A stretch of 63,599 bases of DNA, counting the filler, from Sphacelaria rigidula (taxonomy: Eukaryota), in assembly GCA_964200075.2 (NCBI GenBank). It is 8 parts of 8 records of this genome, joined end to end, with 100 filler letters (N's around TTAATTAATTAA, not from the genome) between each part and the next. Parts side by side here need not be neighbours in the genome. Positions count along the whole stretch, not along the records: positions 47,777 to 55,638 come from CAXNAA020013189.1; 7 more parts are not named here. The stretch is one strand, 5' to 3'. The position numbers were made by a program, and so were the translations under genes. The notes under the pieces are model-generated. The model worked only from the letters and a program-made list of their open reading frames with translations. It ran no database searches and was not told the DNA's origin. The first letter of the stretch is position 1. The number at the start of each line of letters is the position of its first letter. Of the stretch, positions 23,131 to 62,477 are shown in pieces.

Positions 23131-23889
23131 CCCCCAACCACCTGCAGCTCAATGACGGTTTATAAAATATGAAGACACGCTATCCATCAGGTTAGCGCGC
23201 ACACGGTCAGAAAAAAGAACGACCGCAAGCCATTCCATTCCGAGGGCAATTTGATATATCGTCTCACGATAACTGAAGACACTTTCTACGATAGCCCCCC
23301 CCCAAACCAGCCCAAAACTGTCACGTCCACAAAAAATAAAACCAAACCCCAGGCTCCTGGGGTTTCCGGTAGTGGTGTGTGGAGTAGCCCACCCCTAGTG
23401 AACATGCAGGTGCATGATGAGCTGCAGGTTAATACATGGAGACTTGGATATGAAGTTTGCACCATTATATCAGGTCATGAGATATTTTTGGAGTATGAAG
23501 TGCCGACGGAAGTGCAACGAACCACTTCCGATAACGAAGACTGTGTGTTTGTGAACAACATCTGTCTTGAAGCCTCCAAGCCCTAGTGAGGGAGGAAGCC
23601 CTTGGAGCCCTTGGAGCAGTCTTGTGACCTTGTTCTGAGTCCAAGAGGGGTCTGTAATAAACGTTTATTCAGTGAACCCGCTAGCTTCTAGGGACGATTG
23701 TTTCAGTCACTTTCTACGATAGCCCCCCCAAAAACCAGCCCAAAAGTGTCTCGAAAAAAGTACCATACAGCGCCTGATGTTTGGGTTCANNNNNNNNNNN
23801 NNNNNNNNNNNNNNNNNNNNNNNNNNNNNNNNNTTAATTAATTAANNNNNNNNNNNNNNNNNNNNNNNNNNNNNNNNNNNNNNNNNNNN

Positions 23890-30892: not shown

Positions 30893-31010
30893 AGATTGAC
30901 TGTACACCACACCACAAGCATGTTCTGTGAGCTTGACTGTACACCACACACCACAAGCATGTTCTGTGAGCTTGACTGTACACCACACACCAGAAGCATG
31001 TTCTGTGAGA
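30893..31010. repeat. ~39-bp tandem repeat, 3 copies
   Basis: Unit ttgactgtacaccacacaccacaagcatgttctgtgagc. Confidence 0.85.
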
Positions 31011-31852
31011 ACGCGACTAGCTTGTGGCTTGTCCTTTGCCCGAGACACGGTGCGAGCCTATACAGCTCGCCCCCCGTCTGTCACTTCACTTCACATCCCA
31101 GTCTACTTCTGGGATCTCCACTGTCAGCTCTCCTGAGCATTGTCCTGTCCTCAACGTACCGTCATAGCTTGATCGACAGGGCGCTCTACTGTCTCAGAGA
31201 GGCCAGGGATCGTAACCCTCTGGCGTCACTCTACTGATGTGTACTGAACCGTGTTACTACAGGAAAAAAAAATGTAAGGCAGGTAAAATATTAACCCGGA
31301 AATCGAACCTACAATACGATGTCAACTTATGGAAGGTAGAAGTAAGTCGAGGTGACGTCGTCGGTCATGGCGAATGCTGGGGGAAGGTTCGGGCACATCG
31401 ACCGACGGAGCTCTACCAGTCATTAGAATCTCGAACGCTGCTGGGGTTAATGTGGCTTCGCTTCCTGCTTGGTTGTTTCGGTGCATGCAAAACCTCATGA
31501 AGAGTCGAAATGTCATCACAGGATGGCACATTCAACGAGGGGACCTTAGGATTTGTACGTAAACAATGGTTGGTACTATGGAGATGCCGCCAACCCTAAC
31601 GCTAACCCTAACCCTAACCCCGACCAAGGCATACCGAGAACCCTCGGGCAAAGGGGTGCAGAGTGTTCCCTAGGCAAGGTGTGCGTTGCCAGAGCTCAAA
31701 TCGACGCCTTTCAGCCGATTTTGGACCAAAACACGTTCTGGACGAGCTGGGTNNNNNNNNNNNNNNNNNNNNNNNNNNNNNNNNNNNNNNNNNNNNTTAA
31801 TTAATTAANNNNNNNNNNNNNNNNNNNNNNNNNNNNNNNNNNNNNNNNNNNN

Positions 31853-34800: not shown

Positions 34801-36780
34801 TACTGTCAGCGGGCGCGCTATCATGCCTACCCGTTTTGACAGACACGTGCTGAGTCTCCTTCCCGCTCTGCAGGGTGGAAACAGCTGCCCTGTATCGTTG
34901 TTTCAGACGCGGAACACCTACTGCACGTTCATCGGGTGCACTATCGTGCCTGTTCTTTCAGGCAGACACATGCTTCTCGGCTTTCACAGTGCAAGCATCT
35001 GCCGTGTATCGTTGTTTCAATTGCGCAGAACCTACTACACGTTCAGCGGGTGCAATATTTTGCCTGTCCCCTCGGGCAGACACATATTTCTCGGCTGTCA
35101 CAGTGCAAACAGCTACCCTGTATCGTTGTTTCAGACGCGGACCACCTAATGCACGTTCATCGGGTGCATTGTCGTGCCTGTTTTTTCAGGCAGACACATG
35201 CTTCTCGGCTGTCGCAGTGCAAGCATCTGCCGTGTATCGTTGTTTCAAACGCGCAGAACCTACTGCACGTTCAGCGGGTGCACTGTCGTGCCTGTCCCCT
35301 CTGACAGACACATGCTTCTCGGCTGTCACTAGGCAAGCAGCCACACCGGACGGCACATGCTTGCGCAACGCGAAAAGCAACTGCTCGTCCTCAGCATCAT
35401 TATCATGCTTCAAGAACGTGTCACACAGACATTTCGCAATATGTTTCGGCATGAGCTCAGAAACTGCGGCCACCTCAAAGAGATTTGTCCACCGCGCGTT
35501 CACCTGATCTACATCTCGCACATATTGCTCGTATTTTCGTAAAAACTCGGCCGATTTCTCGCTCGAAAACTTGCGACCGTAGTACGGCATCTCCAGCGCC
35601 AGTACAAGAACAACACGACCATCGACGATGACATATCCTTGCGACTCATCCATTTCGGTCAGCAGTACAGTATCCTACACCGCCTTGTTTGAAAATGAAG
35701 TCGCCTCCCACTCACAGGAACAACAACTCTCTCCTTACACCGAGACGCGCTGTATCACCTTACAACGACAATGGCCACAGCGCCTCTTCCTCACGCAGGT
35801 CTCACCACGTGTTTGAAGTCCTTAGACTCGTCTTCCTGGCCGTACCTGGCCAAGCGTGGAACACGCAAACCTCGCTGGCTCCACCAGGTCGTATGGTAAT
35901 TGCGCCGCTTTTTCTGGAACGCGCACGGACTCGTCAGCTGTCGATGAGCCCCCTGCACCTCACGCACGAGCGATACCACAGCCCGCCTTAGCACTACCTC
36001 AGAACCTCCTCGGCTCTACTCCTCCGACTCCTCGCGACGTTCACACGCCTTGAGCTGGTCTTGTTTGCTGCAAACTGATCAGGCCTGCAGACTTCCCTAT
36101 CGTGAAGTGTCAACTGCTTTTCAGCGGACCTACCGCCTTTCGGCGGACTTAATGAACGTTCATTATAGACTTCTGTCACTCAAGATCAGATTGCCATGTG
36201 AACTTCTTTCATCACGGGCACATGGACTTCAGCAGCTTTAATTCTTCATGTATTAAGCCTCAGCATGGTACAGGAGAACAGGACCGTAGTCTCTCTCCAC
36301 CAGAGTAGCAAAACCGGCTCTACTCGTCGTGGAGATCACCCATCACAAAGTCCGGCAATCAGACCCGCCACTCCATCAACACAATGTCCGGGACCTTATG
36401 TAAGAATGGTGGCTAGGTCTACCAAATTGATCAGGCCTGCAGACTTTCCCATCTTGAAGTGTCAGCTGCTTTTCAGCGGACCTACCGCCTCGGCGGACTT
36501 AATGAACGTTCATTATAGACTTCTGTAACTCAACATCAGATCGCCATGTATGATACTCCTCCCATCACGGGCACATGGACTTCAGCAGCTTTAGTTCTTC
36601 ATGTATTAAGCCTCAGCGTTGTACAGGAGAACAGAACCATAGCCTCTCTCCACCACAGTAGCAAAACCAAGTCTCACGTCATGGAGGTCACCCATCACAG
36701 AGTCCGGCGATCAGATCCGCAACTCCGTCTACCTAATGCCCCCAACCTTAGGTAACAACGGTGGCTAGAGTCTACGAGTC
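31853..36780 (-). mobile_element. Heavily degenerate retroelement-like unit bounded by direct repeats
   Basis: The block ttcagcagcttta...catgtattaa.cctcagc...gtagcaaaacc occurs at 31853, 36228 and 36581. A gag-like minus-strand ORF starts at 35653 (LEMPYYGRKFSSEKSAEFLRKYEQY), followed by interrupted frames. No catalytic motif was recognised with confidence. Confidence 0.5.
34790..35330 (-). repeat. 117-bp (39-codon) tandem repeat in alternating A/B variants
   Basis: Repeated RHDSAPAER...LKQRY...TAEKHVS units, with one more copy at ~36850-37030. Confidence 0.85.
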
Positions 36781-38300: not shown

Positions 38301-39889
38301 GAGTAGTCTAGCGAGTGGCAGATACGTGGATTGGATGATGAATGTTCGCCAGATGGGTCGGAGTACGAATCCGCAGACGATAGTGGTGGCAAGAGGAGTT
38401 CCGCTGAGTGTTCGTTGGAAGGGTCGGATGACGAATCTTCAGGCAATAGCGATAGCCAAACAGATTGTTCAGAGGGTAGCGAGTCAGATTCCTCAGACGA
38501 GACATCATCCCAAAGCGACGTCGACGGATGAGGTCCAAGTCGTGATCTTTTCGGTTAGGGTTATCACGATACAAACGTTTGTGTTGATGATGTTTGAAGG
38601 CGTGTATTTTTTTGCGGATGAAATAGCCTGGCATTGTGAAGATGCATTTATTTGTTGTGCCGTGAGCATGATTTTTTATGTAATAAAGATGATACTCGAT
38701 CAGACACCGAACATGTCTATTCTCCGACAGGAAATGGAAACAAACCGTCTTCACACACGCAACCGACCAATGCCGGGGACAATACACTCGTGCCTCAGGA
38801 GGGGCGGAGCCAAAAACATACATAGAAGGCGTCCCAGTGGCATGTGGCTTCAGGAAAAGTGGGTCGACCACTTCATCCTGATTTTATGCCATATTAGTGA
38901 CGTGCGAGACTGCAGGCTTGTCCTGCGTTCGAACCCCAACTCTCGCGCATTTCTTCATTTCGCCTAGAAGCGGGTTTTTATGTCATGGACGTTACTGAAG
39001 TGAATATTCGAAATTGTTGCTGACGGAGTAATGCACCTTCTCAGACGGTATGTTGCACCGTGGTGGTATGGTATCACAGAAATGGATACAACGTGTAACA
39101 ATAACGGCCGTGTGCCTAGCACTGGTGGAGGAAGTACACACATAAGTGGTGCTGGTGTGGCACGTGGAATGAGCCATGACGGGCGGATCGCATCTTCGAG
39201 TGTTTCATGCACGGTCGGTCCTATGTGTGTGCCTGGTGGCCGCGGTTCGCGAACTATGCATGGGGTGGACTGCGCGCATATTTTGTTATCGCCTGTACAC
39301 GAGTTTTGATGTCACGAACTTTATAGAAGCTGACGTTGGAAATGTTGTGTGAGAATGAACACACATACACAAATCTGTCTTCCACGAGGTCAGTTGCACA
39401 AGACAGCTACCTTCGATGAAGACTGACCGCGCAGCGCACGCCTGGAGTATAACGGAATGTCGTGCTTGATTAAAACAGAGAAGGAATATACCCCAGAGGA
39501 TGGAGATGAGTGCCGCCGCTGTGGGCGCCGTGTGGCAGATGCCTCATACTTTACACATAACAGAAGGATGTTTGATCGGGCTTGATGCCCAACAGCACAT
39601 CACACGTGAACATTTTTTTTACATGATGGTTACCCAATAACAGGAAACAGTGTTTTCGTGAGATTGAGAGTAGATGATACGATTGATAGCGGCTTTGATC
39701 ATTCGCTTTATGTGNNNNNNNNNNNNNNNNNNNNNNNNNNNNNNNNNNNNNNNNNNNNTTAATTAATTAANNNNNNNNNNNNNNNNNNNNNNNNNNNNNN
39801 NNNNNNNNNNNNNNTCCTCCGGGTTCTCATCCTCAATGAAAAGCACCATCCTCAACATAGATGATCGGCTGTTAATAGGAGGAAACCAA

Positions 39890-41735: not shown

Positions 41736-42017
41736 AGCCGTGAGACAAAATCAAAAGCACGGTATATGCCCGGTGAAACCGAGATTCACAGAGCCGGGTG
41801 GGTACCATGGTCAGATTTGTCAGCCTGGTTCCATCAACGCTGAGACTGTTTTTGACTACCGATAGTGCGCTCAACCATGCCCATTAGATTTTTTCGTGTC
41901 TTCATTTTCTCACACAAACTCTTCATGCCATCTCCTTGACAAGTTGCAACGGGGAAGCGGGTCGGAGTGCATGCTCACGTCTCATGAAGCTCACCATGAA
42001 CATGCACCAGTACTCAC

Positions 42018-43217
42018 CATTCCTTCCTCGAAATTCTTCTTGACAACTGCATGCACCCAGTCGACGGCTTCGGTACTGCGGGATAGAATCGCTAGCGTGA
42101 ACAGGGATCTACCAGCCAAGGAAATCGCCTCGATTGCACGTCGTACGCGTGACTGAGCTTCGCACTCCCTGGTGTCAGCTCCTCGTATTTTCCTCTCGAC
42201 AAGGTCCAGCACGTCCACATGGCCTCGTCGGGCCGCTGCAGCCAGCAGCATTCCATGTCCCCATGCCTTTAGCAGGTCGTCCGAAAGTCCGTCAATGGAT
42301 GCTGCACTCTTATCGGTGCTCTTTATCACCAAGGTCACTGCAAGTATTTCGTCCAGATCCCCTTTGTCGAGATCCACCTTGTCGAGATTCACCTTGTCGA
42401 GGTTCACTTTTTCTCCGCCACCATGGACAACCATCTCAATTACCATATTCCACGACTGCAGTCCACCATACGCAGCGTGTATCAACTCTGTCGTGCCCTT
42501 CACCACGACTTGATCGAACTCCAACTTGCACCGTTCTTTTTTCGTCCTCCCGGTGGATACGTCGTCGACAGATAGCCCTCTCAAGTCCCGCGGCACCTTC
42601 GGATGAAGTCGAAGCGGGCGACTGTGCATCCACCCGTCTTCGCCGGCATGATTGCGTTTTTCCCAGAGGAGCTCGAACTTCTGTGTTACGCTGTCTCCAA
42701 TGCTGCCCGCGCTGTAGCGCCTGCGCAAGACGTACATCATGGGGGTCCGTCCGTTGTTGTCCGGCTTGCTCATGGCGTCAAAGACCTCGTACTTCTCGGC
42801 CATCTCGATCACCTGCCGCAGAATATCTGCGTTCCCAGCCTCGCTCGCATGATGAAGCAATGTACGTCCAGACTTGTCAGGCTGGACAAATACTGTCTTT
42901 AGCTTCTCCTCCCAATCCTTGCGGAGGTTCTGGCCAGAGAGACTCCCCTTGCAAGCTGCCTCAAGCAAACGCAACACCTCACGGAAGACCTCAATGTGAT
43001 TGCTTCTAGCGGCATACATGAGAATTCCTCTGGCGGCCTTGCGGTCGACTGCCTCTACTTGCTCTATCAGACCGATCGCTGACAGGGTTTCCTCAATCGT
43101 TTGGCGAACAGCTTCGAAGCACGAACGCGGTCCTTTGCTACTTGCTGCGAGAGATAGCAGGGGCGCTCCGTTTGCATCCGATTCCCTCAGTTGCTTCACG
43201 AGCCCTCTTAATCCCAG
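42018..43217 (-). CDS. Ankyrin-repeat protein, 1200-nt internal exon
   Basis: Acceptor ctattag|CTG, donor ATG|gtgagt, phase 0/0. Ankyrin motifs DANGAPLLSLAA, DKSGRTLLHHASEAGNADIL, DNNGRTPMMYVL and LLAAAARRGHVDVL. Confidence 0.88.
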
Positions 43218-44158
43218 CTAATAGCGCGACATCCGCAGAGTCAGGGGTCCACAAAAACAAATGGACAGGGGAGGGAGGGCGGTGAGACCCACGATAGCTT
43301 TGAACCCCACGTGTTAACGGACAAACATGGCGGGCATCCGTTTCCTTTCACTGCCACATGTACGCTCCGAAACTGTAGCTCTAGTGTTTCGTTTTCGTTC
43401 ATCATATGTAAAATTGGCAATTGCATCAGACTGATGCCACCGTGGGGAACGACGGAGGAGGGTTGGTGATCCAATTGTTGCAAGGAAGAGCCGCTTTGAA
43501 ATGTTGCTACAGGCTAAAATGCCCGTATGAATTTCTTGATATCAGCATCGAGTTCCTTTTCAAAACACCTGATATCGTTCCTACCCATATACGACCAGTA
43601 CTTGAGTATGAGGTCGTGGAATACACTCCTGACCTCGTTTTTTCGTGCGACCAAACGCCCCGCCCCCCTATCGAGGGATGAGACATCATTTGATCCCCGG
43701 CGCATCTTTGTGGTGAGAAAACAACGCTTGGTGCCGTGTGAATTATGCTGTCAAAAGCCGTCGCCGCGTGGCTTGAATCTTGGTGTGAGTCAATAAAACG
43801 CCTAGAACAGCCGTTTTGTTGCATGTCCTCAAGCTGTTCATGTGTACCAAAGAATTATTTGGCAACCATTCAAATGAACAGAACGGAGTCCAACAGCCTT
43901 GCTCTCCATGTGATACGCATGCAATACCAGGTCATGCAATAGCGCAGATTTTGCCTTTGACGTCTCTGATACAGGCCAGCACCACTCCAGCTTTTGCCTA
44001 AAGGTGCAAATAAGTAGAGCTCATTGTCAGCGTTCTAGCTATCAGGGACACGGAATTTACCCTCGATGTGAAAGTTTCCTTTCGTGGAGAAAATCGTGTC
44101 AAAAGAAGAAAATACATCGCAGTGTAGTAGTTGCAATTACCCCTGCGTACGTCCATAC

Positions 44159-44353
44159 CTCGCTTTTGATAACGTTGACTAATTGTATGAACCATTCCTT
44201 CTCTCCTGCTTCTGCGGCGTACATGATGAGGCTCTTCCCGCTTTCTATCTCCTTGGCCTCGAGAGTATCTACCGACACCGATCCCCGCTCCAGCGCCGGA
44301 TCAGACTCGCTTGACATCCGACCCGTCAATCTGTACATCATCTCTAGATGGTG
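44159..44353 (-). CDS. Ankyrin-repeat protein, upstream 195-nt exon
   Basis: gtcccag|CAC...GAG|gtatgg. Encodes ESGKSLIMYAAEAGEKEWF and splices in frame to 43217 (VIKSE|LGLRGL). Confidence 0.75.
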
Positions 44354-44800
44354 CTGGGACAAGGTGTTCGAGAAAACGGTAAGAATTATCCTTGAGAAAT
44401 GTATCACACGACCGACAGCTGTAATGTACATTTTTTTCTAAACGTGGCTAAATCTCAACACGCACGCGTGTACCCTCTGCGCAGAATTGTCAAGCAAATG
44501 CAGTGTGAGTGAGTGATTGATGTACCCTAGAATATGAACTCAGAACTTCAGTATTCAGCGTAACGGACACAAAGGGAGCACTCCCTCCCCGAACTCAGTG
44601 CATGGGCGAGGAAGCCCGCATGCCCAGGTCTTTGTTCTGGGTGACACCTAGGTACTGGAGGCGGGTTCACGCCAACACGCCGAGAAAACGCCACGCTAGA
44701 AAACACTTTTGTATCGTGAAACTCCAACGCCAACCCCAACGTTAGACCCAGCAAGGCATACCGTGGACCCTCGAGCATGGGAGGCGCACAGAGTGTCCTA

Positions 44801-45445: not shown

Positions 45446-48400
45446 TAGGCCAAGTATGCGTTGGCATAGATCAATTCTGTACCGATTTGCTCCGGGACGC
45501 GTGCTGCGTACGCTGGGGATGTGGTCGGGACTGTGAACCCTGTACAAATCCGAATATATGATGGAATATACTGATTCCACGTCCTTGCTTGCTATAGATT
45601 TTGTCCCCGAGTTCGTGTGAAGCTTAGTTGCAAGTGCTGTAATGCGTGAGCGGATCGCGTGCTCTTTGGACCGCATTGGAGTTCAAAATACCCCGGGATC
45701 GACGTTTATCCAGACCGCCCCGGCCAGTCCCTGCTGGGACCACGCCCCTGGCCCCAAAAAACCCTAACCCTAATCGTGACCATTGGGATGTTCAAACTCC
45801 GACGCGGTGCAAAGAGCACGCGGTCTGCTCGCGCATTGCAACGCTTCAACTGTTCTTGAGTAAGAGTCTCAAACCCTCATCAAGCGCCCGAACCTTAGCA
45901 TAAGGAGCTTATGCTCTTTAGGCCATGCACGTGGAGGACACGCACCCCTTCATCGCTGCAAATGTAGTGAAGTGCCCTTTTTTGTCGTTGTGATATCCCT
46001 AATCGTGCATCTCTGTACCCCGTGTCTTTTCCCAGGTGAACTGGGAGTGGTTTATGGCAGTAATAATGGTCGTCAGCAATCGTTCAAAAAATAACACGCA
46101 TCAAACGATTGACCAGCAAGATATATCTGCTGTGCATTGCGATCATTTACAGGTGGTGCCTCAGGACCAGCTTAATCGTTTGACTACACGCCTAGCTTTG
46201 GAACCATAATTTCGCTGGCAATCTTCTGCTACCTCGGTTGCATCTACTTCTCCACCGTAATCTTAGTAGGGCAGGATGCATTTGTACGCTGTGCCATGCT
46301 TCACTTGATGGAGTTATCTTGGCAACCCACGGGGCATGTGCCGACAACTGCACAGTAGCTCCACCTCTTTCGCGTATTCGAACCGTCTCTTCTCGTCGCT
46401 ATAGAAAAGGCAAAATGCGGCTGAGCTACGAAGTGGTCGATGATTTGGTATTTCATACTGGGAAACAAACCTAGCTGAAAGTTGGTACGCAGTCAATCTG
46501 CCTCGTACACACATCTTCAAAATAAACAAGTGCTCTGGCTATCAGCAGAACAATTCTACTTGACTTTAGTGTTATCAACGGAGGGAGTCAACGAAACGGC
46601 AGAGCAGAAACACAAGATCGAGGCGCGGACTCAATTTGAGGGACCTCTGGCGTCGTGCGCATTACTCGCCGAATAAGGGGGCATAGAATACAGCGCAAGG
46701 GACTGACCTCGGGTGACCACCTGTCGATGCCACGTACGGCATATAGATTGCCGTTGCAAGCCCTTTTTCATTGGCCAGCGCATATTCGGTGAGGCTCAAA
46801 GCAATACAGTGTATGTTCAAGCCCAGTGAGGGTGGCCCAGGCGACTCTGTTGCCGCACACTCTCTTGGGCAGAGTCGAGAGGGAGAGGTTTTCATGCGCT
46901 TTCTCTCAGAGACCCTGAACGGTGCTCTACTTGAGAATTTGTTCGAGAAATATTGAGAGAAACAATATACATAATCCATTCATGTCAGGACGGTGCTCCG
47001 ACAGTTCGCTAGCGCAAATTTCGTGATTATTCTTCATATCGAGTTGGGATGAAGCCAAATGTTAAGTGCGTACCGTGATTCAACTCGGGATTTTACAGAT
47101 TAAATTGCGGATGGGCTTTTTATTGAGCATGACTCTCGGGAGACTTCATGAGCATCGAAATATTTTTCAAATGTAAATATAAATGCACTTTACGGCCTTG
47201 ATGTTTAGCCTCACTTATCCTCAAAGGTATCCATCCGCAGTTTGAAAAATCTTGTGTTCGTACCGAACCATTTCGACGTTCGTTCATTCCCGTACAGAAC
47301 ACTGTTCTTTTCTGTCGGAATTTCCTGTGCACACGGGATTCAACTAATTACGAGATTTCACTTATTGCGGGTGGATTTTCTACAATTAAGGAGCGAGGCC
47401 ACACATCACAGCCGGTGAGTGCATTTTCAGTTTGGTTCCGAGGTAAGTTCAATAGTTATGAGCGCTCGCACGATTCATCCCTAAAAGTTATCCCATGCGA
47501 AATGTGTAAAATCCCGTGCTACTTGTCGATGCAGCCCACAAAATGAGCGTCGATTTTGTCATGATTGATCCGTGGCCAAATTGAGTCATGCTACCATAGA
47601 CGAGGGGGGAGGGGGGCGTTCTCATGTGTTGCTTGCCTTAGTCGTTTGACCATTGACCACGCATCCCTTTCGAGACNNNNNNNNNNNNNNNNNNNNNNNN
47701 NNNNNNNNNNNNNNNNNNNNTTAATTAATTAANNNNNNNNNNNNNNNNNNNNNNNNNNNNNNNNNNNNNNNNNNNNTTTCTTATGGCCTATGCACTGCCC
47801 ATACCAAAGTTCAGGGCCCAACTCTAAATGCATAAAAGAGCATGGGCCTGCAAACTTCAAATCCGCCTCTAGGCTGGCCCACTTCGTACAGGTTTTGAAA
47901 ACCTCCTAGTCCCGTGTTTACCATTCGAAAATGAAAGTGAAGCATTTTTTCGAGTGAACAGGCCAAAAATCATGATCGTGTTTTATTCTGTACGTTGCAT
48001 GACGGTATGACCATCACGACGATGAGCATGGTTTGATGCTGTACTGAACTGTACGATACCGTGTAGGACAGCACCACGTCGTGCTTATATAGGTGCGGTG
48101 CAATATACGGCAGTTAGCGCGGCATATACGCCACGTATGGCTGAAAAAAAAGTGGGATGCCTGTACCTTCGGGTGCATAGGGATGTTACATACCGTCGGC
48201 TACTGAGTAAATATCACGATGCCCGTACTTGCAGCATGCTCACCGCTGCAGTCAATAGGACGTGAGAGGGAAGCGGACACAGTACAGTACAGAGAGCGCA
48301 GGACTGTATGTATGTTTCCTGCGTACAGTGCGACGTGAATAGGACTTGAGCAATGTGCGCAGCTTTGTCTGCCTGCACTGTACATGGGCGTGTATATGCA

Positions 48401-49014
48401 GTAAACCGCCGGTTATTGCCCGCACCATACTCCGCTGCTCAAGTTGAAATTTCCACCAACAAGACATACACCATGCCTAACTACTGCAGTGTATATCTAT
48501 ATCCCCCTGTGCCGAACTCGTTCTCTTTGTTGCAGAGATATTGTGGAGGTATTACAGCTGGGAAGAAGTGTTGTCGGGTTTGCATTTTAAATCTGTGAGC
48601 GGCGTGTGTTGCTTGCGAGGCCATAGTCGGTCCCTCCTCCGGAGGAATGATGGCTCATTTTTTCCTCTGCTGTTCGTATTTCCTCCGAGAGACGTTCACG
48701 AGAAACACGTGCTTCGGAGCACCATATCTTCGGTACTCTGGAGGGATTCAGACGTCGGAAGCCACTGGAGCACCAGATGCAGGGGACTTGTTATATGACC
48801 CGAACCGGGTATGCGATACCCTCCAGAGGGTATTTTTACCCTCCCGACGGTCACTATTTCCTCGGGGGGATGAATCGCGATAGAGGATTTCCAGTGGGGT
48901 AGCCGATGGCCGCGTGTGGGGTCAGAGGCGCACATGACAGATTCACGAGACAGTCGAGTAAACTTCAAATACTATCCCTGCTCCGATACACATTCACTCG
49001 TCGAAGGAACTCGC

Positions 49015-49066
49015 CGCGTAGCCGATTGCTCGAGAGGTCAAAAGTTCCCAGGTTGCTGAGCTGACC
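49015..49066 (-). pseudogene. Decayed terminal LRR exon
   Basis: Retains QLSNLGTFDL-like sequence, but the acceptor half is deleted, the donor is GCGAGT and there are indels. Confidence 0.7.
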
Positions 49067-49259
49067 CAAGTTTGAAACACACGGGGATTGCAGTCCCATC
49101 ACGTTTCCCACCTCGACTGCAAATGCGTCCCGCCAACCCGGAGCCTACCCGGAGACGAGACACTATTTCACGACACAACAGCCGACCACAACTTGACATT
49201 ATCGCGTGAACCTTCAATACCGGCCATGCTACCATACACGTTTGTCCCCAGGAACTCAC

Positions 49260-52200
49260 CGCTCAGCTGGTTTCCGAAGAGGTTCAGCGTTCCTAGGTTG
49301 CTGAGCTGACTAAGGGAGTGCGGAATTGCGCCTGCATGATGTCCAAAACACGCGTGGATTGCAGGCCCATCAGTTTCTCACATCCACTACAATGCGTGCC
49401 GCCAACCCGGAGCCTACCCGGAGACGAGACACAGTTCAACGAGACAACAGCCGACCACGACTTGACACTATCGCGTGAACCTCCAATACTGCCCCTGCCA
49501 CCATACACGTTCATTTATCCCGAAGAACTCACCCCTTAGCTGGTTAATGAAGAGGCGTAGCGCTGTCAGGTTGCTGAGCTGACCAAGGGAGTGCGGAATT
49601 GCGCCTGCATGGTGTACAAGACACGCGTTAATTGCAGTCCCATCAGTTTCTCACCTCCACTATAAATGCGTCCCGTCAACCCGGAGCCTACCCGGAGACG
49701 AGACACAGTTCCACGAGACAACAGCCGACCACGACTTGACACTATCGCGTGAACATTCGATACCGGCCCTGCTACCATACACGTCCCTTTGTCCCCAGGA
49801 ACTCACCGCTCAGCTGGTTCCTGGAGAGGTCTAGCGTCCCCAGGTTGCGGAGCTGACCGAGGGAGTCCGGAATTCCGCCTGCATGATGTCCAAAACACGC
49901 GTGGATTGCAGTCCCATCAGTTTCTCACATCCACTACAATGCGTCCCGCCAACCCGGAGCCTACCCGGAGACAGGACACAGTTCCACGACACAACAGCCG
50001 ACGACGACTTGACACTATCGCGTGAACCTCCGATACCGGCCCTGCTACCATACACGTTCATTTGTCCCCAGGAACTCACCGCTCAGCTGGTTCCTGGAGA
50101 GGTCTAGCGTCCCCAGGTTGCTGAGCTGACCAAGGGAGTCCGGAATTGCGCCTGCATGGGTGTCAAAAACACGCGTGGATTGCAGTCCCATCAGTTTGTC
50201 ACACCCACTGGAATGCGTGCCGCCAACCCGGAGCCTACCCGGAGACGAGACACAGTTCCACGAGATAACAGCCGGCGACGACTCCACACCATTGCGTGGA
50301 TCTTCGATACCGGCCCTGCTACCGTACACGTTCATTTGTCCCGAGGAACTCACCGCTCAGCCGGTTTCTGGCGAGGTCTAGCGTCCCCAGGTTGCTGAGC
50401 TGACCGAGGGAGTCCGGAATTGCACCTGCTAGGTGTCCGAAACACGCGTGGATTGCAGTCCCATCAGTTTGTCACCTCCACTACATTGCGTCCCGCCAAC
50501 CCGGAGCCTGCCCGGAGACGAGACACAGTTCCACGAGATACGACACAGGTCCACGAGATACGACACAGGTCCACGAGACAGCAGCCGACCACAACTTGAC
50601 ACTATCGCGTGAACCTCCAATGCTACCCTTGCTACCATCAACGTTCATTTGTCTCGAGGAACTCACCGCTCAGCTGGTTTTGCAAGAGGTTGAGAGTCCC
50701 CAGGTTGCTGAGCTGACCAAGGGAGTCCGGAATGGCGCCTGCATGGGTGTCCAAAACACGCGTGGATTGCAGTCCCATCAGGTTTCCACATCCACTACAA
50801 TGCGTGCCGCCAACCCGGAGCCTAGACGAGACTCAGTTTCCACGAAATAGCAGCCAACCACGACTTGACACTATCGCATGAACCTTCGATACCGGCCCTG
50901 CTACCATACACGTTCATTTGTCCCAAGAAACTGACCGCTCAGCCGGTTTCTGGAGAGGTCTAGCGTCCCCAGGTTGCTGAGCTGACCAAGGGAGTCCGGA
51001 ATTACGCCTGCATGGTGTCCAAAACACGCGTGGATTGCAGTCCCATCAGTTCTCCACCTCCACAACAATTCGTGCCGCCAACCCGGAGCCTACCCGGAGA
51101 CGAGACACAGTTTCACGAGACAAGACACAGTTCTACGAGACAAGACACAGTTCCACGAGACAAGACACAGTTCCACGAGACAAGACACAGTTCCACGAGA
51201 CAAGACACAGTTCCACGAGACAACAGCCGACCACAACTTGACACTATCGCGTGAACCTCCAATACTGCCCCTGCAACCATACACGTTCATTTGTTCCAAG
51301 GAACTCACCGCTCAGCTGGTTTTGCAAGAGGTTTAGCGTCCCCAGGTTGCTGAGCTGACCAAGGGAGTCCGGAATGGCGCCTGCATGGGTGTCCAAAACA
51401 CGCGTTAATTGCAGTCCCATCAGTTTTCCACATCCACTACAATGCTTGCCGCCAACCCGGAGCCTACCCGGAGACGAGATACAGTTCCACGACACAACAG
51501 CCGACCACAACTTGACGCTATCGCGTGAACATCCAATACTGCTCCTGCTATCATACACGTTCATTTGTCCCGAGGAACTCACCGCTCAGCTGGTTCCTCG
51601 AGAGGTCTTGCGTCCCCAGGTTGCTGAGCTGACCAAGGGAGTCCGGAATTGCGCCTGCATGGTGTCCAAAACACGCGTTGATTGCAGTCCCATCAGTGTC
51701 TCATCTCCACCACAAATGCGTCCCGCTAACCCGGAGCCTACCCGGAGACGAGACACAGTTCCACGAGACAAGACACAGTTCCACGAGACAACAGCCGACC
51801 ACAAGTTGACACTATCGCGTGAATCACGAACACTATCCGTGCTACCGTACACGTTCATTTGCCCCCAGAAACTCACCGCTCAGCTGGTTGTGGGGGAGGT
51901 TTAGCGTCCCCAGGTTGCTGAGCTGACCAAGGGAGTCCGGGATTGCGCCTACACGGTGTCCAAAACACGCGTGGATAGCAGTCCCATCAGTGTCTCACAT
52001 GCACTACAAATGCTTCCCGTCAACCCGGAGCCTACCCGGAGACGAGACACAGTTCCACGAGATAAGACGCAGTTCCACGAGACAAGACACAGTTCCACGA
52101 GACAAGACACAGTTCCCCGAGACAACAGCCGACCATAACTTGACGCTGTCGCGTGAGTCTCCAATACTGCCCCTGCTACCGTGTACGTTCATTTGTCCCA

Positions 52201-53675
52201 AGGAACCCACCGCCCAGCTGGTTTCCGACCAGGTTTAGCGTCCCCAGGTTGCTGAACTGACCAAGGGAGTCCGGAATTGCGCCTGCTCGGTGTCAAAACC
52301 AAGAGTGGATTGCAGTCCCAACAGTTTCCCACCTCCACTACAATGCGTCCCGTCAACCCGGAGCCTACCCGGAGACGAGACACAGTTCCACGAGATAAGA
52401 CACAGTTCCACGAGACAACAGCCGACCACAACTTGACACTATCGCGTGAACCTCCAATACCGGTCCTGCTACCGTACACGTTCATTTGTCCCCAAGGAAC
52501 TCACCGCTCAGCTGGTTTTGCAAGAGGTTTAGCGTCCCCAGGTTGCTGAGCTGACCAAGGGAGTCCGGAATGGCGCCTGCATGGGTGTCCAAAACACGCG
52601 TGGATTGCAGTCCCATCAGTTTCCCATATCCACTACATATGCGTCCCGTCAACTCGGAGCCTACCCGGAGATAAGACACAGTTCCACGACACAACAGCCA
52701 ACCACAACTTGACACTATCGCGTGAACCTCCAATACCGGCCCTGCTACCGTACACGTTCATTTGTCCCAAGGAACTCACCGCTCAGCTGGTTAACGGAGA
52801 GGCGTAGCGCTTTCAGGTTGCTGAGCTGACCAAGGGAGTCCGGAATTGCGCCTGCATGGGTGTCCAAAACACGCGTGGATTGCAGTCCCATCAGTTTCTC
52901 ACCTCCACTAGAAATGCGTCCCGTCAACCCGCAACCTACTCGGAGACGAGATTCAGTTCCACGACACAAGAGCCGACCACAACTTGACGCTATCGCGTGA
53001 ACCTCCAATACTGCTCCTGCTACCATACACGTCCCTTTGTCCCCAGGAACTCACCGCTCAGCTGGTTTCCGAAGAGGTCTAGCGTCCCCAGGTTGCTAAG
53101 CTGACCGAGGGAGTCCGGAATTGCGCCTGCATGGTGTCCAAAACACGCATGGATTGCAGTCCCATCAGTGTCTCACATCCACTATAAATGCGTCCCGCCA
53201 ACCCGGAGCCTACCCGGAGACGAGACACAGTTCCACGAGACAACAGCCGACGACGACTTGACACTATCGCGTGAACCTCCAATACTACCCCTGCTACCAT
53301 ACACGTTCATTTGTCCCCAGGAACTCACCGCTTAGCTGGTTTTCGAAGAGGTCTAGCGTCCGCAGGTTGCTGAGCTGACCGAGAGAGTCCGGAATTGCGC
53401 CTGCATGGTGTCCAAAACACGCGTGGATTGCAGTCCCATCAGTTTCTCACCTCCACTATAAATGCGTCCCGTCAACCCGGAGCCTACACGGAGACGAAAC
53501 ACAGTTCCACGGGGCAACAGCCGACGACGACTTGACACTATTGCGTGAATGTCCGATACTGCCCCTGCTACCATACACGTTCATTTGTCCCCAACGAACT
53601 CACCGCCCAGCTGGTTTTCGGAGAGGTTTAGCGTCCGCAGGTTGCTGAGCTGACCGAGGGAGTCCGGAATTCCGC
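49260..53675 (-). CDS. LRR domain encoded by 16 single-repeat 72-nt exons (ROCO-type LRR exon array; consensus GAIPDSLGQLSNLGTLDLSRNQLS)
   Basis: Exons: 53604-53675, 53329-53400, 53055-53126, 52780-52851, 52505-52576, 52211-52282, 51877-51948, 51583-51654, 51309-51380, 50936-51007, 50667-50738, 50354-50425, 50080-50151, 49807-49878, 49533-49604, 49260-49331. All are YAG|...|GT (mostly GTGAGT), phase 1/1 and stop-free. A CTGAT branch-like motif lies ~40 nt before most acceptors. Confidence 0.93.
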
Positions 53676-53812
53676 CTGCATGGTGTCCAAAACACGCGTG
53701 GATTGCAGTCCCATCAGTTTCTCACATCCACTACAATGCGCCTCGTCAACCCGGAGCCTACCCGGAGACGAGACACAGTTCCACGACACAACAGCCGACG
53801 ACGACTTGACAC

Positions 53813-54161
53813 TGTTTGTAGGATGGCCTGCGGTGTTCAGTAGGATACACCTAGTCAGGGTAAGGTACAACAGTCTAGTGACATACGTGTTTGAGTTCCG
53901 GCTACTACGCGGAATGACTATATTGTGATGTTAGTAACTGGACATACGTGAGTAGTGCTTATCGCATCTTGGTACGTTGGCCCCGTAGGGCCCACTCCCC
54001 TTCCTTCCCTCTTCATCAACAAAGCTTTATATACATTTCTACCTCATCTTGATCGGCAGTCAGCCGTGTTCATTGATCGACTATCGCTGTCGTGTGCATT
54101 GATCGACTATCTGAGTCGAGTCTGTACCCCATCCTCTCACGGGGTCACGAAGCTACAAACA
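53813..54161. mobile_element. Solo-LTR-like insertion in an LRR-array intron
   Basis: GACAC|TGTTTGTAG...CTACAAACA|GACAC: TG..CA ends, 9-bp inverted termini and a 5-bp flanking duplication. Confidence 0.75.
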
Positions 54162-54214
54162 GACACTAGAGCCCAAACCCTAACCAACTTGGGAGCTCCG
54201 TGGCCAAGGGACCG

Positions 54215-54700
54215 ATGGCGGACCGGAGCACTGCGGAAAGACACTCGGCCATCGTAGGAGACTCATCGTCTCCAACAGAGATGCTGGAGGTGAAAGAGAA
54301 TGTCGCCAGCTTGCAAGGATCGGTGACGGATATCACCGAGCAGCTGGTGGAGCTGAAGACGATGATGGTGTCCCAGTTAGTGCGCGGGACATCGTCCACT
54401 GGCCCCGGAGCGGCAGCGGACGAGGAGGGGGAGGCAGGCGACGGAAGGCACACCGTCGCCGGTGCCGGAACAGGGAGGGTCCGGTCACCACTCGGTGTAG
54501 GGATTGTATCAGGCCCTCTCCGAGGATCCACGGGCGATGGATCCGCCCATGTAAGTATGAACGAGGAGTCCCCGGCTTACTACCCTCATCTAGGCGTGAA
54601 GAGTTGTTTTCGTGTTGATGAAAGATTCGATGAGAAGTTTGACAGTAAGGAGAAAAATTGGCCGTTGTTCCGTGATGATGATCTCCCCGACACAAGTTAG
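54215..54700 (+). mobile_element. Possible gag-like 5' ORF of a degenerate retroelement
   Basis: Coiled-coil-like start (EMLEVKENVASLQGSVTDITEQLVELK) preceded by a PBS-like TGGGAGCTCC. No diagnostic motif was seen. Confidence 0.3.
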
Positions 54701-57094
54701 TGCCGCACTTTTCATAAGCACCTCACGTGAAAGACGGGAAATATTTCCGTATGACACAGGAAACTGGCCAGGACCCCCGTGAAGTGGCAAGGGAAGTCGA
54801 AAAAGGAATTTACGAATTTACAAGGGACCTCGGGGGATATGGGGGATTCGAAACGTGATGGGCGTGAAAAATGGTTCTGTAAAGGAGAGGTGATGTTGGA
54901 TTTGCCGAAAGCAAACGACACACTTCGCGCGTGACTGTCCGGAACGACATTGTATGAGATACGGAAAAAAGAGACACTCTTTTGAGGATTATAATACAGG
55001 AGAAGAAGATACAGCGATGGCAGTAGGGTCACCGGGTAGTACCGATTCTTCAGTATGTTCGGAAGCGGACGCAGAAGCCTTTTGAAAAATGATGGCATGA
55101 GACCTATGCATGACTCAAATACCCCTTTGTTTTTATGTTTTGAGTGTTCGTGTCCATCACGCAGATAGCGATTTATGTACCCAAGGAGGGGTTGTTGCCC
55201 AGGTGGATCGAGATATTGGATATCTCTGGACAATGCTGAGTTCATATTTTTGATATGGACACCGAAACTCAGTGTTGATGTTTGACGAATTTGTGGCTCG
55301 ATGAGTGCATACCTACTTTGCGCGTTTGTTTGACTCGATTGATGAATAGAAAACCGTCTGCCGTTTTTGTAAGTATGAGGAGAGCGGGGCACCGCGACTT
55401 GACTTGACTGTGGAACGGTGTCGGTAAAATTGCACAGAGTGAAGTGCGTGAAGAGTGTTGAGAACATGTTTTGACATGGTTGCCGAAACTCACCGCTTAT
55501 GGGTAACATTATTGCCACCCCGATGAGCGCAGGACTGTGGGGCACCACACCCTTACTCGATCGGTTGAGGTGGAACCTTGTTCGTCGCCTTGGTGAGTAC
55601 AGGCACGTGGGGCACTGCTGTCTGACTAGACTAGAGGGNNNNNNNNNNNNNNNNNNNNNNNNNNNNNNNNNNNNNNNNNNNNTTAATTAATTAANNNNNN
55701 NNNNNNNNNNNNNNNNNNNNNNNNNNNNNNNNNNNNNNGGCCGAAGAAATCGTGAAATTGGTGATTTTGAGTCGTGATGATTTTGTCCTATGAACGTGAA
55801 AACATTGGTGCAACGAAAAGCAACCCCCAAAAAGAAATCGGGCTCGACGTCTAACCCCATACTACTTCCTACATAATACGCGTACGACGCTAGTCCTTTG
55901 GGTGAGAGACTACTCGTAAAAAATGAGATGTTGAGCCCGGTATAGGCCCGACACAGTATCTCCTACTATTTGTAGCGAGCGCTACAGTGTGAACCATGGG
56001 CATCTCGCGTCAGCCCCAACTTGAGCGGTTTTCGTCAACCAACCCGTTTCCTCACGAAACGGTGACATGGATCCAGGTTATCTCCCGTGCTCTCGCACAT
56101 ATCCCTTACTTATTTCGTGATAGAACGTCTGGTTGTCAGAAAGGGAACTCAGGCCATCGACAGATACTCAAGCGACCATATTCTAGGGTCGTGCATCAAT
56201 ACAAGCACACAAGGTAATATATACCGGCGATCGGCGGAGGTCGTATTGCCTTTCCCTTGTCCAAGAAATAAAATTCGACCGACCATCCAAGTATCCATTC
56301 AATCCCAACCAATCAATGAATTGATTATAATATATGACAAAAATATCGAAGTACATCGCAAAAATGCCTCATCAACATTTGACCCAAACTGTATAACGCC
56401 CCCCCGCTCCCCCCCCCCAAAAAAATATTGGTCAACTCATCGTGCCGAATTTTTAGATGTACAATACAACAGGTATCGACAGATAGTATCAAATGCATCT
56501 GCAGGGGATGATACACAACCTTTACTGTACAGCTGGTGCATTGTGCTGTGCTGTACTCTGCTGCGTTGTGTTTGTCTCTCGACTTCGTTCAGTTCACCAT
56601 GACCGTTCCACATGCTTCTCATGTCGTTCTTTCCTCGAGCCTTCTTGAGCGAGTGTTTCTGTCCTGTGTACCTTACTGAGTGCGTCCATTTTGTGGATAA
56701 TGACCACAGCTGGATTACTCGGTGACCAGATAATGACCACGACTGTATCACTCTATTTTTGTGGATAATGACCACGGCTGGATTACTCGGTGATCGGATA
56801 ATGTGCTACAATCAAAGCAAGTCATAACAAGAAATTAAACCTAGGGTCCACCCCTTCGTAACCTTTTATGCCCCAGATCTCCACCTTGACTGATGTCGCC
56901 CATGGTAAGAGGGTTTGGGTCTATCCAAGGACACTTGTAGCAATTTACCCCTTGTACAATGACGCGCATTCCCTCACAACGAGTCTCCTCCGGGCGCTAC
57001 ACACGCACCAATCTCCCTGTCGAAACTCTGGATGCTCTCTTGACAATTTTTCCGGCCGTTACATCCATTTTGCAGCAGGGGCTTCCAATATTTT

Positions 57095-62075: not shown

Positions 62076-62477
62076 CATGCTAAGTGTTTCGAGTACTATT
62101 GAGCTCATAGTTCCGTGCTCTGGGGGTGGGGTTGGGATAGCAGGCAACACGCGGTACTACCGTCTACAGTACTTGAGAACGGCCCGCAGGCTAGCTATAG
62201 ATGAAGGCCAGTTGGATATGGGTGATGCAGGGAGTTCGCGCGTCGAAATGGCTTCAGCTTCCCGCCCCGAGAAAATGAATTACTTGTTTTGAGCTCCGGT
62301 ACCTGGTGCGTGTGAATGGCAACGAAGAAAACATGCGCCACAACAAGATCGGCATGAATGCGTTGCTCGTGTGGCTTTTGCGAGCTCCCCCCGTAGTACC
62401 GCGTGTTGCCTGCTATCCCAACCCCACCCCCAGAGCACGGAACTATGAGCTCAATAGTACTCGAAACACTTAGCATG
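62076..62477. repeat. Perfect 85-bp inverted repeat with a 232-bp spacer
   Basis: 62076-62160 is the exact reverse complement of 62393-62477. Confidence 0.95.

What the first reader, a model, noticed from the sequence alone, without database searches (positions are those of the whole stretch)
49015..53812. Array of one-LRR-per-exon cassettes: candidate diversifying immune-receptor locus
Seen in the sequence: 16 intact 72-nt exons, each exactly one 24-aa LRR, all phase 1/1 and stop-free, within near-identical ~200-bp introns. Any exon can be skipped, duplicated or swapped without a frameshift. Established knowledge: this architecture was described for LRR-ROCO genes of Ectocarpus (Zambounis et al. 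2012) and proposed as a basis for variable pathogen receptors. To my knowledge the shuffling mechanism, and whether it acts somatically, remain unresolved. Inference: this is a young, homogeneous example that could generate combinatorial receptor diversity by recombination, conversion or alternative splicing, analogous to lamprey VLR cassettes or Dscam.
Basis: partly seen in the sequence, partly recalled or inferred. Interest (0 to 1): 0.92.

Follow-up and report, generated by a model that had tools for sequence, protein, structure and literature searches.

The report
Tandem one-LRR-per-exon array, known algal type
This is a real tandem array of sixteen 72-base exons, each encoding one leucine-rich repeat; it matches an exon type already described in brown-algal candidate immune-receptor genes, so it is a clean new example of a known design rather than a new system.

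Summary
On the minus strand, 49260-53675 carries 16 intact 72-nt exons. All have an AG acceptor and a GT donor, all are phase 1/1 and stop-free, and each encodes one 24-aa LRR. The unit is about 274 bp. The peptides fit the published "type I LRR exon" GxxPxxLxxxxxLxxLxLxxNxLx (PMC3341825).

The introns are not near-identical. They are 83-94% alike, mean 88%.

Framework codons are conserved (pN/pS 0.30). Codons 14, 15, 17, 19 and 20 are three times as diverse as the introns. Codons 15, 17, 19 and 20 are the published positively selected sites.

Contigs of three runs guessed to be RNA carry exact GT..AG joints at 4 of 15 introns. One further joint fits skipping of exon 8. A DNA-like run has none of these joints.

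The window holds no Roc/COR domain, N-terminal cap, start codon or in-frame stop. The array stops mid-intron against a high-copy LTR-like repeat at 53813, and its last unit is degenerate. The ankyrin gene downstream is separate.

My reading is a germline, selected and spliced LRR domain of a non-ROCO or LRR-only locus. Somatic diversification has no support here. Alternative splicing of such arrays is already published (PMC11378527). It is a new member of a known kind, of modest interest.

The parts
49015..53812 (-). Whole tandem array: 16 intact units, one truncated unit, and a leading partial intron (53812-53676)
   Evidence: TRF period 274-275; exon table; intron alignment
53604..53675 (-). 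LRR exon 1 (xGIPDSLGQLSNLRTLNLSENQLG)
53329..53400 (-). LRR exon 2
53055..53126 (-). LRR exon 3
52780..52851 (-). LRR exon 4 (KALRLSV subtype, resembles exon 15)
52505..52576 (-). LRR exon 5 (72 of 72 nt identical to exon 9)
52211..52282 (-). LRR exon 6 (donor GTGGGT; run X5 contigs run unspliced into both flanking introns)
51877..51948 (-). LRR exon 7 (its 3' end is joined to an exon 5/9/11-type start in runs X5 and X7)
51583..51654 (-). LRR exon 8 (core Leu16 replaced by Gln; candidate skipped exon)
51309..51380 (-). LRR exon 9
50936..51007 (-). LRR exon 10 (donor GTCAGT); intron 10 joint seen in X5
50667..50738 (-). LRR exon 11
50354..50425 (-). LRR exon 12
50080..50151 (-). LRR exon 13; intron 13 joint seen in X8
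49807..49878 (-). LRR exon 14; intron 14 joint seen in X8
49533..49604 (-). LRR exon 15; intron 15 joint seen in X5 and X8 (72 letters on the shorter side)
49260..49331 (-). LRR exon 16, the last intact exon
49015..49070 (-). Truncated 17th LRR copy: acceptor and first ~17 nt deleted, 1-nt insertion, GC instead of GT donor. A diverged intron remnant follows, down to about 48930
   Evidence: read from the sequence
51097..51223 (+). Largest expansion (6 copies) of the 20-nt intronic minisatellite GAGACAAGACACAGTTCCAC. All 27 matches in the window lie in the array's introns
53813..54161 (+). High-copy repeat that cuts the array mid-intron. It is 349 bp, starts TG and ends CA (LTR-like), and is followed by an ORF at 54170-54697 with no Pfam match
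   Evidence: depth 1e4-1e5 and loose ends at 53813 and 54161 in several runs; no second copy in the window; Pfam negative

Best explanation
The array is a germline tandem array of brown-alga-type 'type I' LRR exons. It encodes all or part of the LRR solenoid of a non-ROCO LRR gene or an LRR-only locus. A 274-bp unit (72-nt exon plus ~202-nt intron) was amplified by unequal recombination. Because every exon is 72 nt and phase 1/1, any copy number stays in frame. Selection keeps the framework residues, the exon length and the splice sites. The residues on the concave beta-strand face (codons 14, 15, 17, 19, 20) have diversified, so each repeat offers a different surface. The locus is transcribed and spliced at the predicted sites, with at least occasional exon skipping. 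Shown: the anatomy, the selection pattern and the exact intron-removal joints. Inferred: the amplification mechanism, the binding function, translation, and the position of the missing 5' and 3' parts. At its 5' end the array is interrupted mid-intron by a high-copy LTR-like repeat. Any start exon must therefore lie beyond that repeat, outside the window, or has been lost.
For: Anatomy: 16 of 16 exons are 72 nt, with AG/GT sites and an open frame in one frame only, and they fit the type I motif of PMC3341825. A single exon peptide matches the repeats of solved plant LRR ectodomains, PGIP, SHOC-2 and Leptospira LRR proteins: 114 distinct PDB sequences at E<=0.01. Selection: intron pi is 0.120; framework codons have pi 0.064, with positions 1+2 at 0.041 and position 3 at 0.112, and pN/pS 0.30. 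The hypervariable codons 14, 15, 17, 19 and 20 have pi 0.362 and pN/pS 1.27, and 0 of 181 15-nt intron windows reach that diversity. Published positively selected sites are 15, 17, 19 and 20 (PMC3341825 section 22), which equal 14, 16, 18 and 19 in 23-aa numbering (PMC11378527 section 11). Integrity: the neutral simulation gives P=0.0024 that all 16 stay intact. There are 0 indels in the exons, against 16 sequence-level indels at 5 alignment positions in the introns outside the minisatellite. Splicing: contigs of X5 and X8, guessed to be RNA, carry joints with CT..AC ends that remove exactly introns 15 (X5 and X8), 14 (X8), 13 (X8) and 10 (X5). X1, the DNA-like best holder, has 0 contigs with any of these joints. 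X5 and X7 carry a joint from the exon 7 end to an exon 5/9/11-type start. Exons 5 and 9 are 72 of 72 identical, so this fits exon 7 joined to exon 9, skipping exon 8. Not ROCO: and the separate ankyrin gene.
Against: The window has no start codon (no Met in any LRR exon), no in-frame stop, no N-terminal cap and no other domain, so a complete gene is not shown. Both flanks are high-copy repeats. The last unit is degenerate. Exon 8 has Gln at a core Leu position, and exons 6 and 10 have weaker donors. The runs with joints are only guessed to be RNA. Their contigs are short, of low depth (2-23) and accepted from 90% likeness, so they could come from a paralogous array. The same runs also hold unspliced contigs, such as the X5 records across exon 6 into both introns. 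11 of 15 introns have no listed joint. The selection statistics come from 16 related copies without a formal test. Synonymous diversity is also raised in the hypervariable codons (pS 0.30), which fits conversion from other loci as well as it fits selection. The organism is coded and I did not establish that it is a brown alga; that rests on the exon type and on small word shares in runs labelled 'algae metagenome'.
Confidence: 0.55

Rival explanations
1. A decaying relic. The array is a 5'-truncated fragment of a former LRR gene, stranded between transposable elements. It is transcribed at a low level and spliced but no longer translated. The selection pattern is inherited from its functional past or is refreshed by conversion from functional paralogues.
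For: The array stops mid-intron at a high-copy LTR-like repeat. There is no start, stop, cap or other domain in the window. The terminal unit is degenerate. Exon 8 carries L16Q. Depth of the spliced contigs is low and unspliced contigs are present. The window is rich in transposable elements, including a copia-type element at 8152-15445.
Against: 16 of 16 exons are intact despite about 12% divergence between units (P=0.0024 under neutrality). Framework pN/pS is 0.30. Transposable-element insertions inside introns are compatible with function.
Confidence: 0.22
2. The LRR domain of an LRR-Roc-COR (ROCO) gene. Its GTPase part would lie outside the window or be displaced by rearrangement.
For: All but one of the Ectocarpus ROCO genes use this exon type, with up to 18 LRRs (PMC3341825 sections 12 and 15) or 4-49 LRRs (PMC11378527 section 10). 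16 LRRs is in that range.
Against: Roc-COR follows the LRRs in ROCO proteins. Downstream of exon 16 there are only a degenerate unit, repeats, and then, 4.7 kb on, a separate ankyrin gene on the same strand. tblastn with the one ROCO-like protein retrieved (P0017) hits only the LRR exons. There is no credible P-loop or DxxGQ motif in six frames of the whole window: the 2 P-loop pattern matches are in stop-riddled context. No LRRNT-like W.GV cap was found. Caveat: P0017 looks bacterial, and small diverged exons could be missed.
Confidence: 0.12
3. A somatically diversifying receptor or cassette locus. The array would be rearranged or used as a conversion donor in somatic cells (VLR-like), or spliced combinatorially on a Dscam-like scale, to build a repertoire.
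For: In-frame modularity. Hypervariable contact positions. One joint type fits exon skipping. The 5' and 3' intron halves have different nearest neighbours, which suggests past recombination between units. The hypothesis is published (PMC3341825 sections 27-28; only section 27 and the outline were read).
Against: No data here address somatic change. The DNA-like run shows no in-register alternative array form; its single 3445-nt skip is out of register, with 24 letters on the shorter side. 0 of 17 LRR copies lie on the opposite strand, so the 'shuffling' hallmark of ROCO loci is absent. Teng et al. 2024 state that somatic recombinant loci, site-specific recombinases and clonal immune cells have not been reported.
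Confidence: 0.05

Closest known systems
Type I LRR exon arrays of Ectocarpus LRR-containing loci (Zambounis et al. 2012, PMC3341825)
   Same: 72-nt exons with one 24-aa LRR each, motif GxxPxxLxxxxxLxxLxLxxNxLx, symmetric phase, tandem arrangement. Variability is concentrated at residues 15, 17, 19 and 20 on the concave face.
   Different: No LRR copies lie on the non-coding strand and none lie inside introns. No N-terminal cap or other domain is in view. The units are a simple head-to-tail repeat with a variable 20-nt intronic minisatellite, which is not mentioned in the sections I read.
Brown-algal LRR-ROCO genes and 'LRR-only' loci (Teng et al. 2024, PMC11378527)
   Same: The same exon size and phase (which they call phase 2), the same selected sites, and alternative splicing of LRR exons. 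They note loci that contain only LRR motifs, 15 of them in S. japonica, as a possible reservoir.
   Different: ROC and COR were not found here. This locus fits their LRR-only class better than ROCO, but I could not see their supplementary tables to compare it with listed loci.
Plant-specific LRR ectodomains (PGIP, FLS2, ERL, GSO1 and others)
   Same: 24-residue repeat with the consensus LxxLxLxxNxLSGxIPxxLGxL. A single exon peptide matches their repeats.
   Different: This is sequence-level repeat similarity only. Plant genes do not encode one repeat per 72-nt exon, and no kinase, transmembrane segment or signal peptide was seen here.
Lamprey VLR cassettes and arthropod Dscam exon clusters
   Same: Modular, in-frame repeat units that could in principle be combined.
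   Different: VLR assembly needs an incomplete germline gene, flanking donor cassettes and cytidine deaminases. Dscam uses mutually exclusive splicing with docking and selector sequences. None of these was tested or seen here; the likeness is conceptual only.

Membership tests
Brown-algal type I LRR exon array | Each LRR is encoded by one 72-nt exon with motif GxxPxxLxxxxxLxxLxLxxNxLx | tested here: met
   16 of 16 exons are 72 nt and fit the motif; definition from PMC3341825 section 15
Brown-algal type I LRR exon array | Symmetric intron phase, so exons can be added or removed in frame | tested here: met
   All exons end with the first base of a Gly codon; the 16 joined exons read 383 aa without a stop
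Brown-algal type I LRR exon array | Excess variability at concave-face residues 15, 17, 19 and 20 | tested here: met
   Codons 14, 15, 17, 19, 20: pi 0.362 against intron 0.120 and framework 0.064; pN/pS 1.27 against 0.30. No formal PAML test was run
Brown-algal type I LRR exon array | Signs of 'shuffling': intact or inactivated LRR exons on the non-coding strand or inside introns | tested here: not met
   0 LRR motif hits on the + strand and none outside 49015-53700. The only inactivated copy is the terminal unit 17
Brown-algal type I LRR exon array | The organism is a brown alga | not testable with these tools
   No genome is held. Organism names are coded. There are small word shares in 'algae metagenome' runs. 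Homologues of the neighbouring gene are unnamed
LRR-Roc-COR (ROCO) protein | Roc GTPase domain C-terminal to the LRRs | tested here: not met
   tblastn of ROCO-like P0017 hits only the LRR exons. No credible P-loop or DxxGQ motif in six frames. This holds within the window only; sensitivity is limited for small diverged exons
LRR-Roc-COR (ROCO) protein | COR domain after Roc | tested here: not met
   No hit to the C-terminal 600 aa of P0017. Pfam on the large ORFs found only ankyrin repeats and transposable-element domains
LRR-Roc-COR (ROCO) protein | N-terminal ~45-residue LRRNT_2-like cap | tested here: inconclusive
   The W.G[VI] motif scan found no plausible cap. However, the array is cut by a repeat at 53813 and the 5' part may lie outside the window. 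The motif used is recalled from the Pfam family, not taken from a call
VLR-type somatic cassette assembly | Incomplete germline receptor gene plus donor cassettes; somatic copy-choice or conversion | not testable with these tools
   Needs DNA from different cells or tissues. The one DNA-like run shows no in-register alternative form
Dscam-type combinatorial splicing | Many alternative exon combinations in mature mRNA | tested here: inconclusive
   One joint type (exon 7 to an exon 5/9/11-type start) in X5 and X7, both from one study. A second apparent skip (exon 15 to exon 13) is ambiguous, because exons 13 and 14 share their last 42 nt and the joint has only 28 letters on that side

The most novel reading that the evidence does not exclude
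This is a TE-bounded LRR-only cassette bank with no start exon in view, yet it is kept intact by selection and is spliced. It would act as a reservoir of hypervariable LRR modules. These would reach receptors either through exon-skipping isoforms of one long transcript or as donors for gene conversion into ROCO or other LRR receptor genes. The intronic 20-nt minisatellite would mark the exchange zone.
Probability: 0.1. Interest if true: 0.8.

Novelty: new member of a known kind. Interest (0 to 1): 0.3.

Why it matters
Brown algae lack the classic plant and animal immune-receptor families, and arrays of one-repeat exons are their leading receptor candidates. This locus is an unusually regular example with 16 in-register units. 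Introns can therefore serve as an internal neutral yardstick, and they show that the contact residues vary three times as much as the introns while the scaffold is conserved. That regularity makes it a convenient target for long-read cDNA and DNA tests of exon skipping and array-length variation. It does not add a new mechanism: the architecture, the selected sites, the alternative splicing and the Dscam/VLR analogies are all in print.

Tried and rejected
- Whole genome: none is held for this window, so paralogous arrays and the rest of the gene could not be sought.
- Earlier findings: three look-ups returned nothing.
- Sequencing runs: no RNA holder is listed on record. The RNA nature of X5, X7 and X8 is the tool's guess.
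- Parts without cover: bins 48829-49091 have zero depth in X5, X7 and X8. I draw nothing from that.
- Protein searches (all three used):
  - A 23-aa exon was too short.
  - A 42-aa contiguous read-through of exon 13, searched against longer proteins, gave 24 hits among 30 candidates. Most were plant LRR kinases, plus one ROCO-like protein, P0017.
  - A read-through of exon 16 against near lengths found no candidate.
  - No brown-algal ROCO protein was therefore available as a probe.
- LRR-ankyrin fusion: rejected.
  - Relatives of the ankyrin ORF (41994-43217, minus strand) are mostly 300-560-aa proteins aligned from their own N-termini.
  - Apart from the window's own LRR query peptide (P0033), none of the 153 proteins scanned carries the LRR motif.
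  - An upstream ORF (44102-44437) aligns colinearly with residues 60-95 of P0038.
- 'Skips 475' joint as exon 14 skipping: rejected as ambiguous.
- X1 joint 49835 to 53281: it skips 3445 nt (12.6 units, out of register) with 24 letters on the shorter side. It remains unexplained and is probably a mapping or paralogue artefact.
- Breakpoint test: Mantel correlations gave r=0.38 across the exon (p=0.017) and r=0.12 across the minisatellite. Within-segment controls gave r=0.03 and -0.47, so the result is not interpretable.
- Identity against distance in the array: no decay with lag.
- Rfam: 0 matches over 47777-55638.
- Intron fold: unremarkable, z = -0.54.
- Protein atlas on the ankyrin ORF: no help with taxonomy.
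- Indel test: 16 sequence-level indels give P(0 in exons)=0.0022, but they sit at only 5 alignment positions, so the independent-event version is weak, about 0.17 by my own arithmetic.
- Not seen: supplementary tables of both papers (lists of loci, PAML tables). They may already list comparable LRR-only arrays.
Full report

Yes.

- Tandem Repeats Finder reports a 274-275-bp period over 49075-53813.
- The coding sense is the minus strand. A script located 16 exons of exactly 72 nt, from 53675-53604 down to 49331-49260.
- All 16 are preceded by AG. All 16 are followed by GT: GTGAGT in 14, GTGGGT at exon 6, GTCAGT at exon 10.
- Each exon ends with the first base of a Gly codon, so the introns are phase 1/1.
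- None has a stop in the LRR frame, whereas 16 of 16 and 4 of 16 have stops in the other two frames.
- Joined in the script, the exons read as 383 residues without a stop.
- Each exon is one 24-aa leucine-rich repeat, for example GAIPDSLGQLSNLGTLDLSRNQLS.
- A single exon peptide matches the repeats of 114 distinct PDB sequences at E<=0.01. These include plant LRR receptor ectodomains, PGIP, SHOC-2 and Leptospira LRR proteins.
- The window contains no other LRR on either strand.

Two descriptors in the finding need correcting.

- Intron length is 197-301 nt (mode 201-203). The differences come from 0-6 copies of a 20-nt minisatellite, GAGACAAGACACAGTTCCAC on the + strand. It occurs 27 times in the window, always in these introns.
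- The introns are 83-94% identical, mean about 88%, with pi = 0.120. They are homologous but not near-identical, so the array is not especially young.

**2. The ends of the array**

The 5' end on the minus strand:

- The repeat stops in mid-intron at 53812, which is column 66 of the intron alignment.
- From 53813 the sequence is a high-copy repeat. Summed contig depth rises from tens or hundreds to 1e4-1e5 in all four runs.
- Contigs have loose ends at 53813 and at 54161.
- The 349-bp segment 53813-54161 starts TG and ends CA, like an LTR. It is followed by an ORF (54170-54697, + strand) with no Pfam match.
- No second copy of it lies in the window.
- The missing half of the intron does not reappear before 63599.

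The 3' end:

- A 17th unit (49070-49015) has lost its acceptor and first ~17 nt. It has a 1-nt insertion and a GC instead of a GT donor.
- A more diverged intron remnant follows, to about 48930.
- High-copy sequence resumes below about 48830.

**3. What gene is it part of?**

The window shows no start codon (no Met in any LRR exon), no in-frame stop, and no other domain.

- Pfam on the large ORFs found only ankyrin repeats (41994-43217, minus strand) and copia-type retrotransposon domains at 8152-13636.
- A tblastn with the only ROCO-like protein I could retrieve (P0017, with Roc and COR Pfam hits) matched the LRR exons only.
- Six-frame scans found no credible P-loop or DxxGQ motif and no W.G[VI] cap motif.

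I tested whether the ankyrin ORF, 5.8 kb downstream on the same strand, could be the C-terminal part of the same gene. I rejected this.

- A full HMMER search found 479 relatives. The close ones are mostly 300-560-aa proteins aligned from their own N-termini.
- Apart from the window's own LRR query peptide (P0033), none of the 153 proteins scanned has the LRR motif.
- An upstream ORF (44102-44437) aligns colinearly with residues 60-95 of relative P0038, just before the part that matches the main ORF.

The ankyrin gene therefore starts near 44.4 kb. That leaves about 4.5 kb of repeat-rich DNA downstream of the array. This is too little, and of the wrong content, for Roc-COR.

**4. Is it under selection?**

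The introns serve as an internal neutral yardstick.

| Region | pi | pN/pS |
|---|---|---|
| Introns | 0.120 | n/a |
| Framework codons, all positions | 0.064 | 0.30 |
| Framework codons, positions 1+2 | 0.041 | n/a |
| Framework codons, position 3 | 0.112 | n/a |
| Codons 14, 15, 17, 19, 20 | 0.362 | 1.27 |

- No 15-nt intron window reaches the diversity of the hypervariable codons (0 of 181; maximum 0.27).
- Codons 15, 17, 19 and 20 are the positions reported as positively selected in Ectocarpus (PMC3341825 section 22). In four brown algae they are reported as 14, 16, 18 and 19 in 23-aa numbering (PMC11378527 section 11).
- A substitution-only simulation at the intron divergence gives P = 0.0024 that all 16 units keep AG, GT and an open frame.
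- The exons contain no indels. The introns have 16 sequence-level indels at 5 alignment positions outside the minisatellite.

Caveats:

- The 16 copies are related.
- No formal likelihood test was run.
- Synonymous diversity is also raised in the hypervariable codons (pS 0.30). Conversion from other loci could contribute as well as selection.

**5. Is it expressed and spliced?**

No run is on record as RNA. Contigs of three runs that the tool guesses to be RNA were laid on 47777-55638 together with the best, DNA-like holder X1.

- X5 and X8 carry joints with CT..AC ends (GT..AG on the minus strand). These remove exactly intron 15 (both runs, 72 letters on the shorter side), intron 14 (X8), intron 13 (X8) and intron 10 (X5).
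- X1 has no contig with any of these joints. This argues against an intronless genomic copy.
- X5 and X7 carry a 'goes back 700' joint between 52576 (start of exon 5) and 51877 (end of exon 7).
- Exons 5 and 9 are identical over all 72 nt, and exon 11 shares the first 43 nt. The simplest reading is exon 7 spliced to exon 9, skipping exon 8. Exon 8 happens to carry Gln at the core Leu16 position.
- A 'skips 475' joint (exon 15 to exon 13) is not evidence of skipping. Exons 13 and 14 share their last 42 nt, and only 28 letters lie on that side.

Limits:

- The contigs are short and of depth 2-23.
- They were accepted from 90% likeness, so a paralogous array could be their source.
- 11 of 15 introns have no listed joint.
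- The same runs contain unspliced contigs, for example across exon 6 into both introns.

**6. How it most likely works**

- A 274-bp exon-plus-intron unit was amplified head to tail by unequal recombination.
- The 5' and 3' halves of the introns have different nearest neighbours, and identity does not fall with distance. This fits repeated exchange between units.
- An attempt to place the breakpoints at the minisatellite was inconclusive.
- Because every exon is 72 nt and phase 1/1, copy number can change without breaking the frame.
- Selection keeps the scaffold and the splice sites. The concave-face residues differ from repeat to repeat, giving a solenoid with a varied binding surface.
- Transcripts are spliced at the predicted sites, with at least occasional exon skipping.
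- Nothing here speaks to somatic rearrangement.

**7. Comparison with what is known**

- The exon type is defined in Zambounis et al. 2012. They also count 46 non-ROCO, non-kinase loci with such exons in Ectocarpus (PMC3341825 section 15).
- Teng et al. 2024 confirm the structure in four brown algae and show alternatively spliced LRR exon combinations. They draw the Dscam analogy and note LRR-only loci as a possible reservoir. They state that somatic recombinant loci have not been reported (PMC11378527 sections 11 and 15).
- Three literature searches found no further paper on this architecture in brown algae. Supplementary tables were not available to me.
- This locus passes the tests for a type I LRR exon array, except for the 'shuffling' hallmark: 0 of 17 copies lie on the opposite strand.
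- Within the window it fails the ROCO tests.
- I could not confirm that the organism is a brown alga.

**8. Verdict**

The feature is real and cleanly described. It is a new member of a known kind, most likely the LRR domain of a non-ROCO or LRR-only locus that is selected, transcribed and spliced, and that is interrupted at its 5' side by a repeat. Interest is modest, at 0.3. The bolder reading is a selected cassette bank feeding receptor diversity by splicing or conversion. It is not excluded, but nothing here supports it directly (probability about 0.1).

Noticed in passing
window 7864-7963, 15827-15926, 23790-23889, 31753-31852, 39715-39814, 47677-47776, 55639-55738: Regular blocks of 44 N + TTAATTAATTAA + 44 N recur every ~7962 bases. 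They look like inserted spacers or masks rather than natural sequence. A separate 10-N run lies at 21902-21911.
   Followed up: partly
window 8152-15445 (+): Copia-type LTR retrotransposon remains. Pfam hits are Pol_BBD and rve (8152-9141), RVT_2 (9681-11108) and Retrotran_gag_2 (12878-13636). A second integrase-like ORF at 14438-15445 had no hit.
   Followed up: partly
window 41994-44437 (-): An ankyrin-repeat gene (Ank_2, E=1.2e-11) with an upstream exon colinear with relative P0038. It has 479 relatives in the representative library. The seven relatives found by the named-source search are all unnamed, Logan-only proteins.
   Followed up: yes
window ~42700-42740 (-), inside the ankyrin ORF: A 33-nt in-frame stretch with GT..AG ends (GTACGT...GGGCAG) is absent from a 99%-identical database fragment, P0034, which reads PMIIGD where the window reads PMMYVLRRRYSAGSIGD. 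This may be a very short intron or an alternative splice form.
   Followed up: partly
window 62076-62160 and 62393-62477: A perfect 85-nt inverted repeat with 232 nt between the arms. ORFs on both strands repeat the same peptide. It may be a foldback or MITE-like element.
   Followed up: no
window 34875-35341; 17950-18192; 30886-31009: Other tandem repeats of period 114/228, 43 and 39 nt.
   Followed up: no
window 47777-48828: Very high summed contig depth in the DNA-like run (6e3-1.5e5) marks another high-copy repeat just downstream of the array. Runs X7 and X8 have exact low-depth contigs at 48238-48497. Positions 48263-48546 are 68% identical to 3325-3614.
   Followed up: partly
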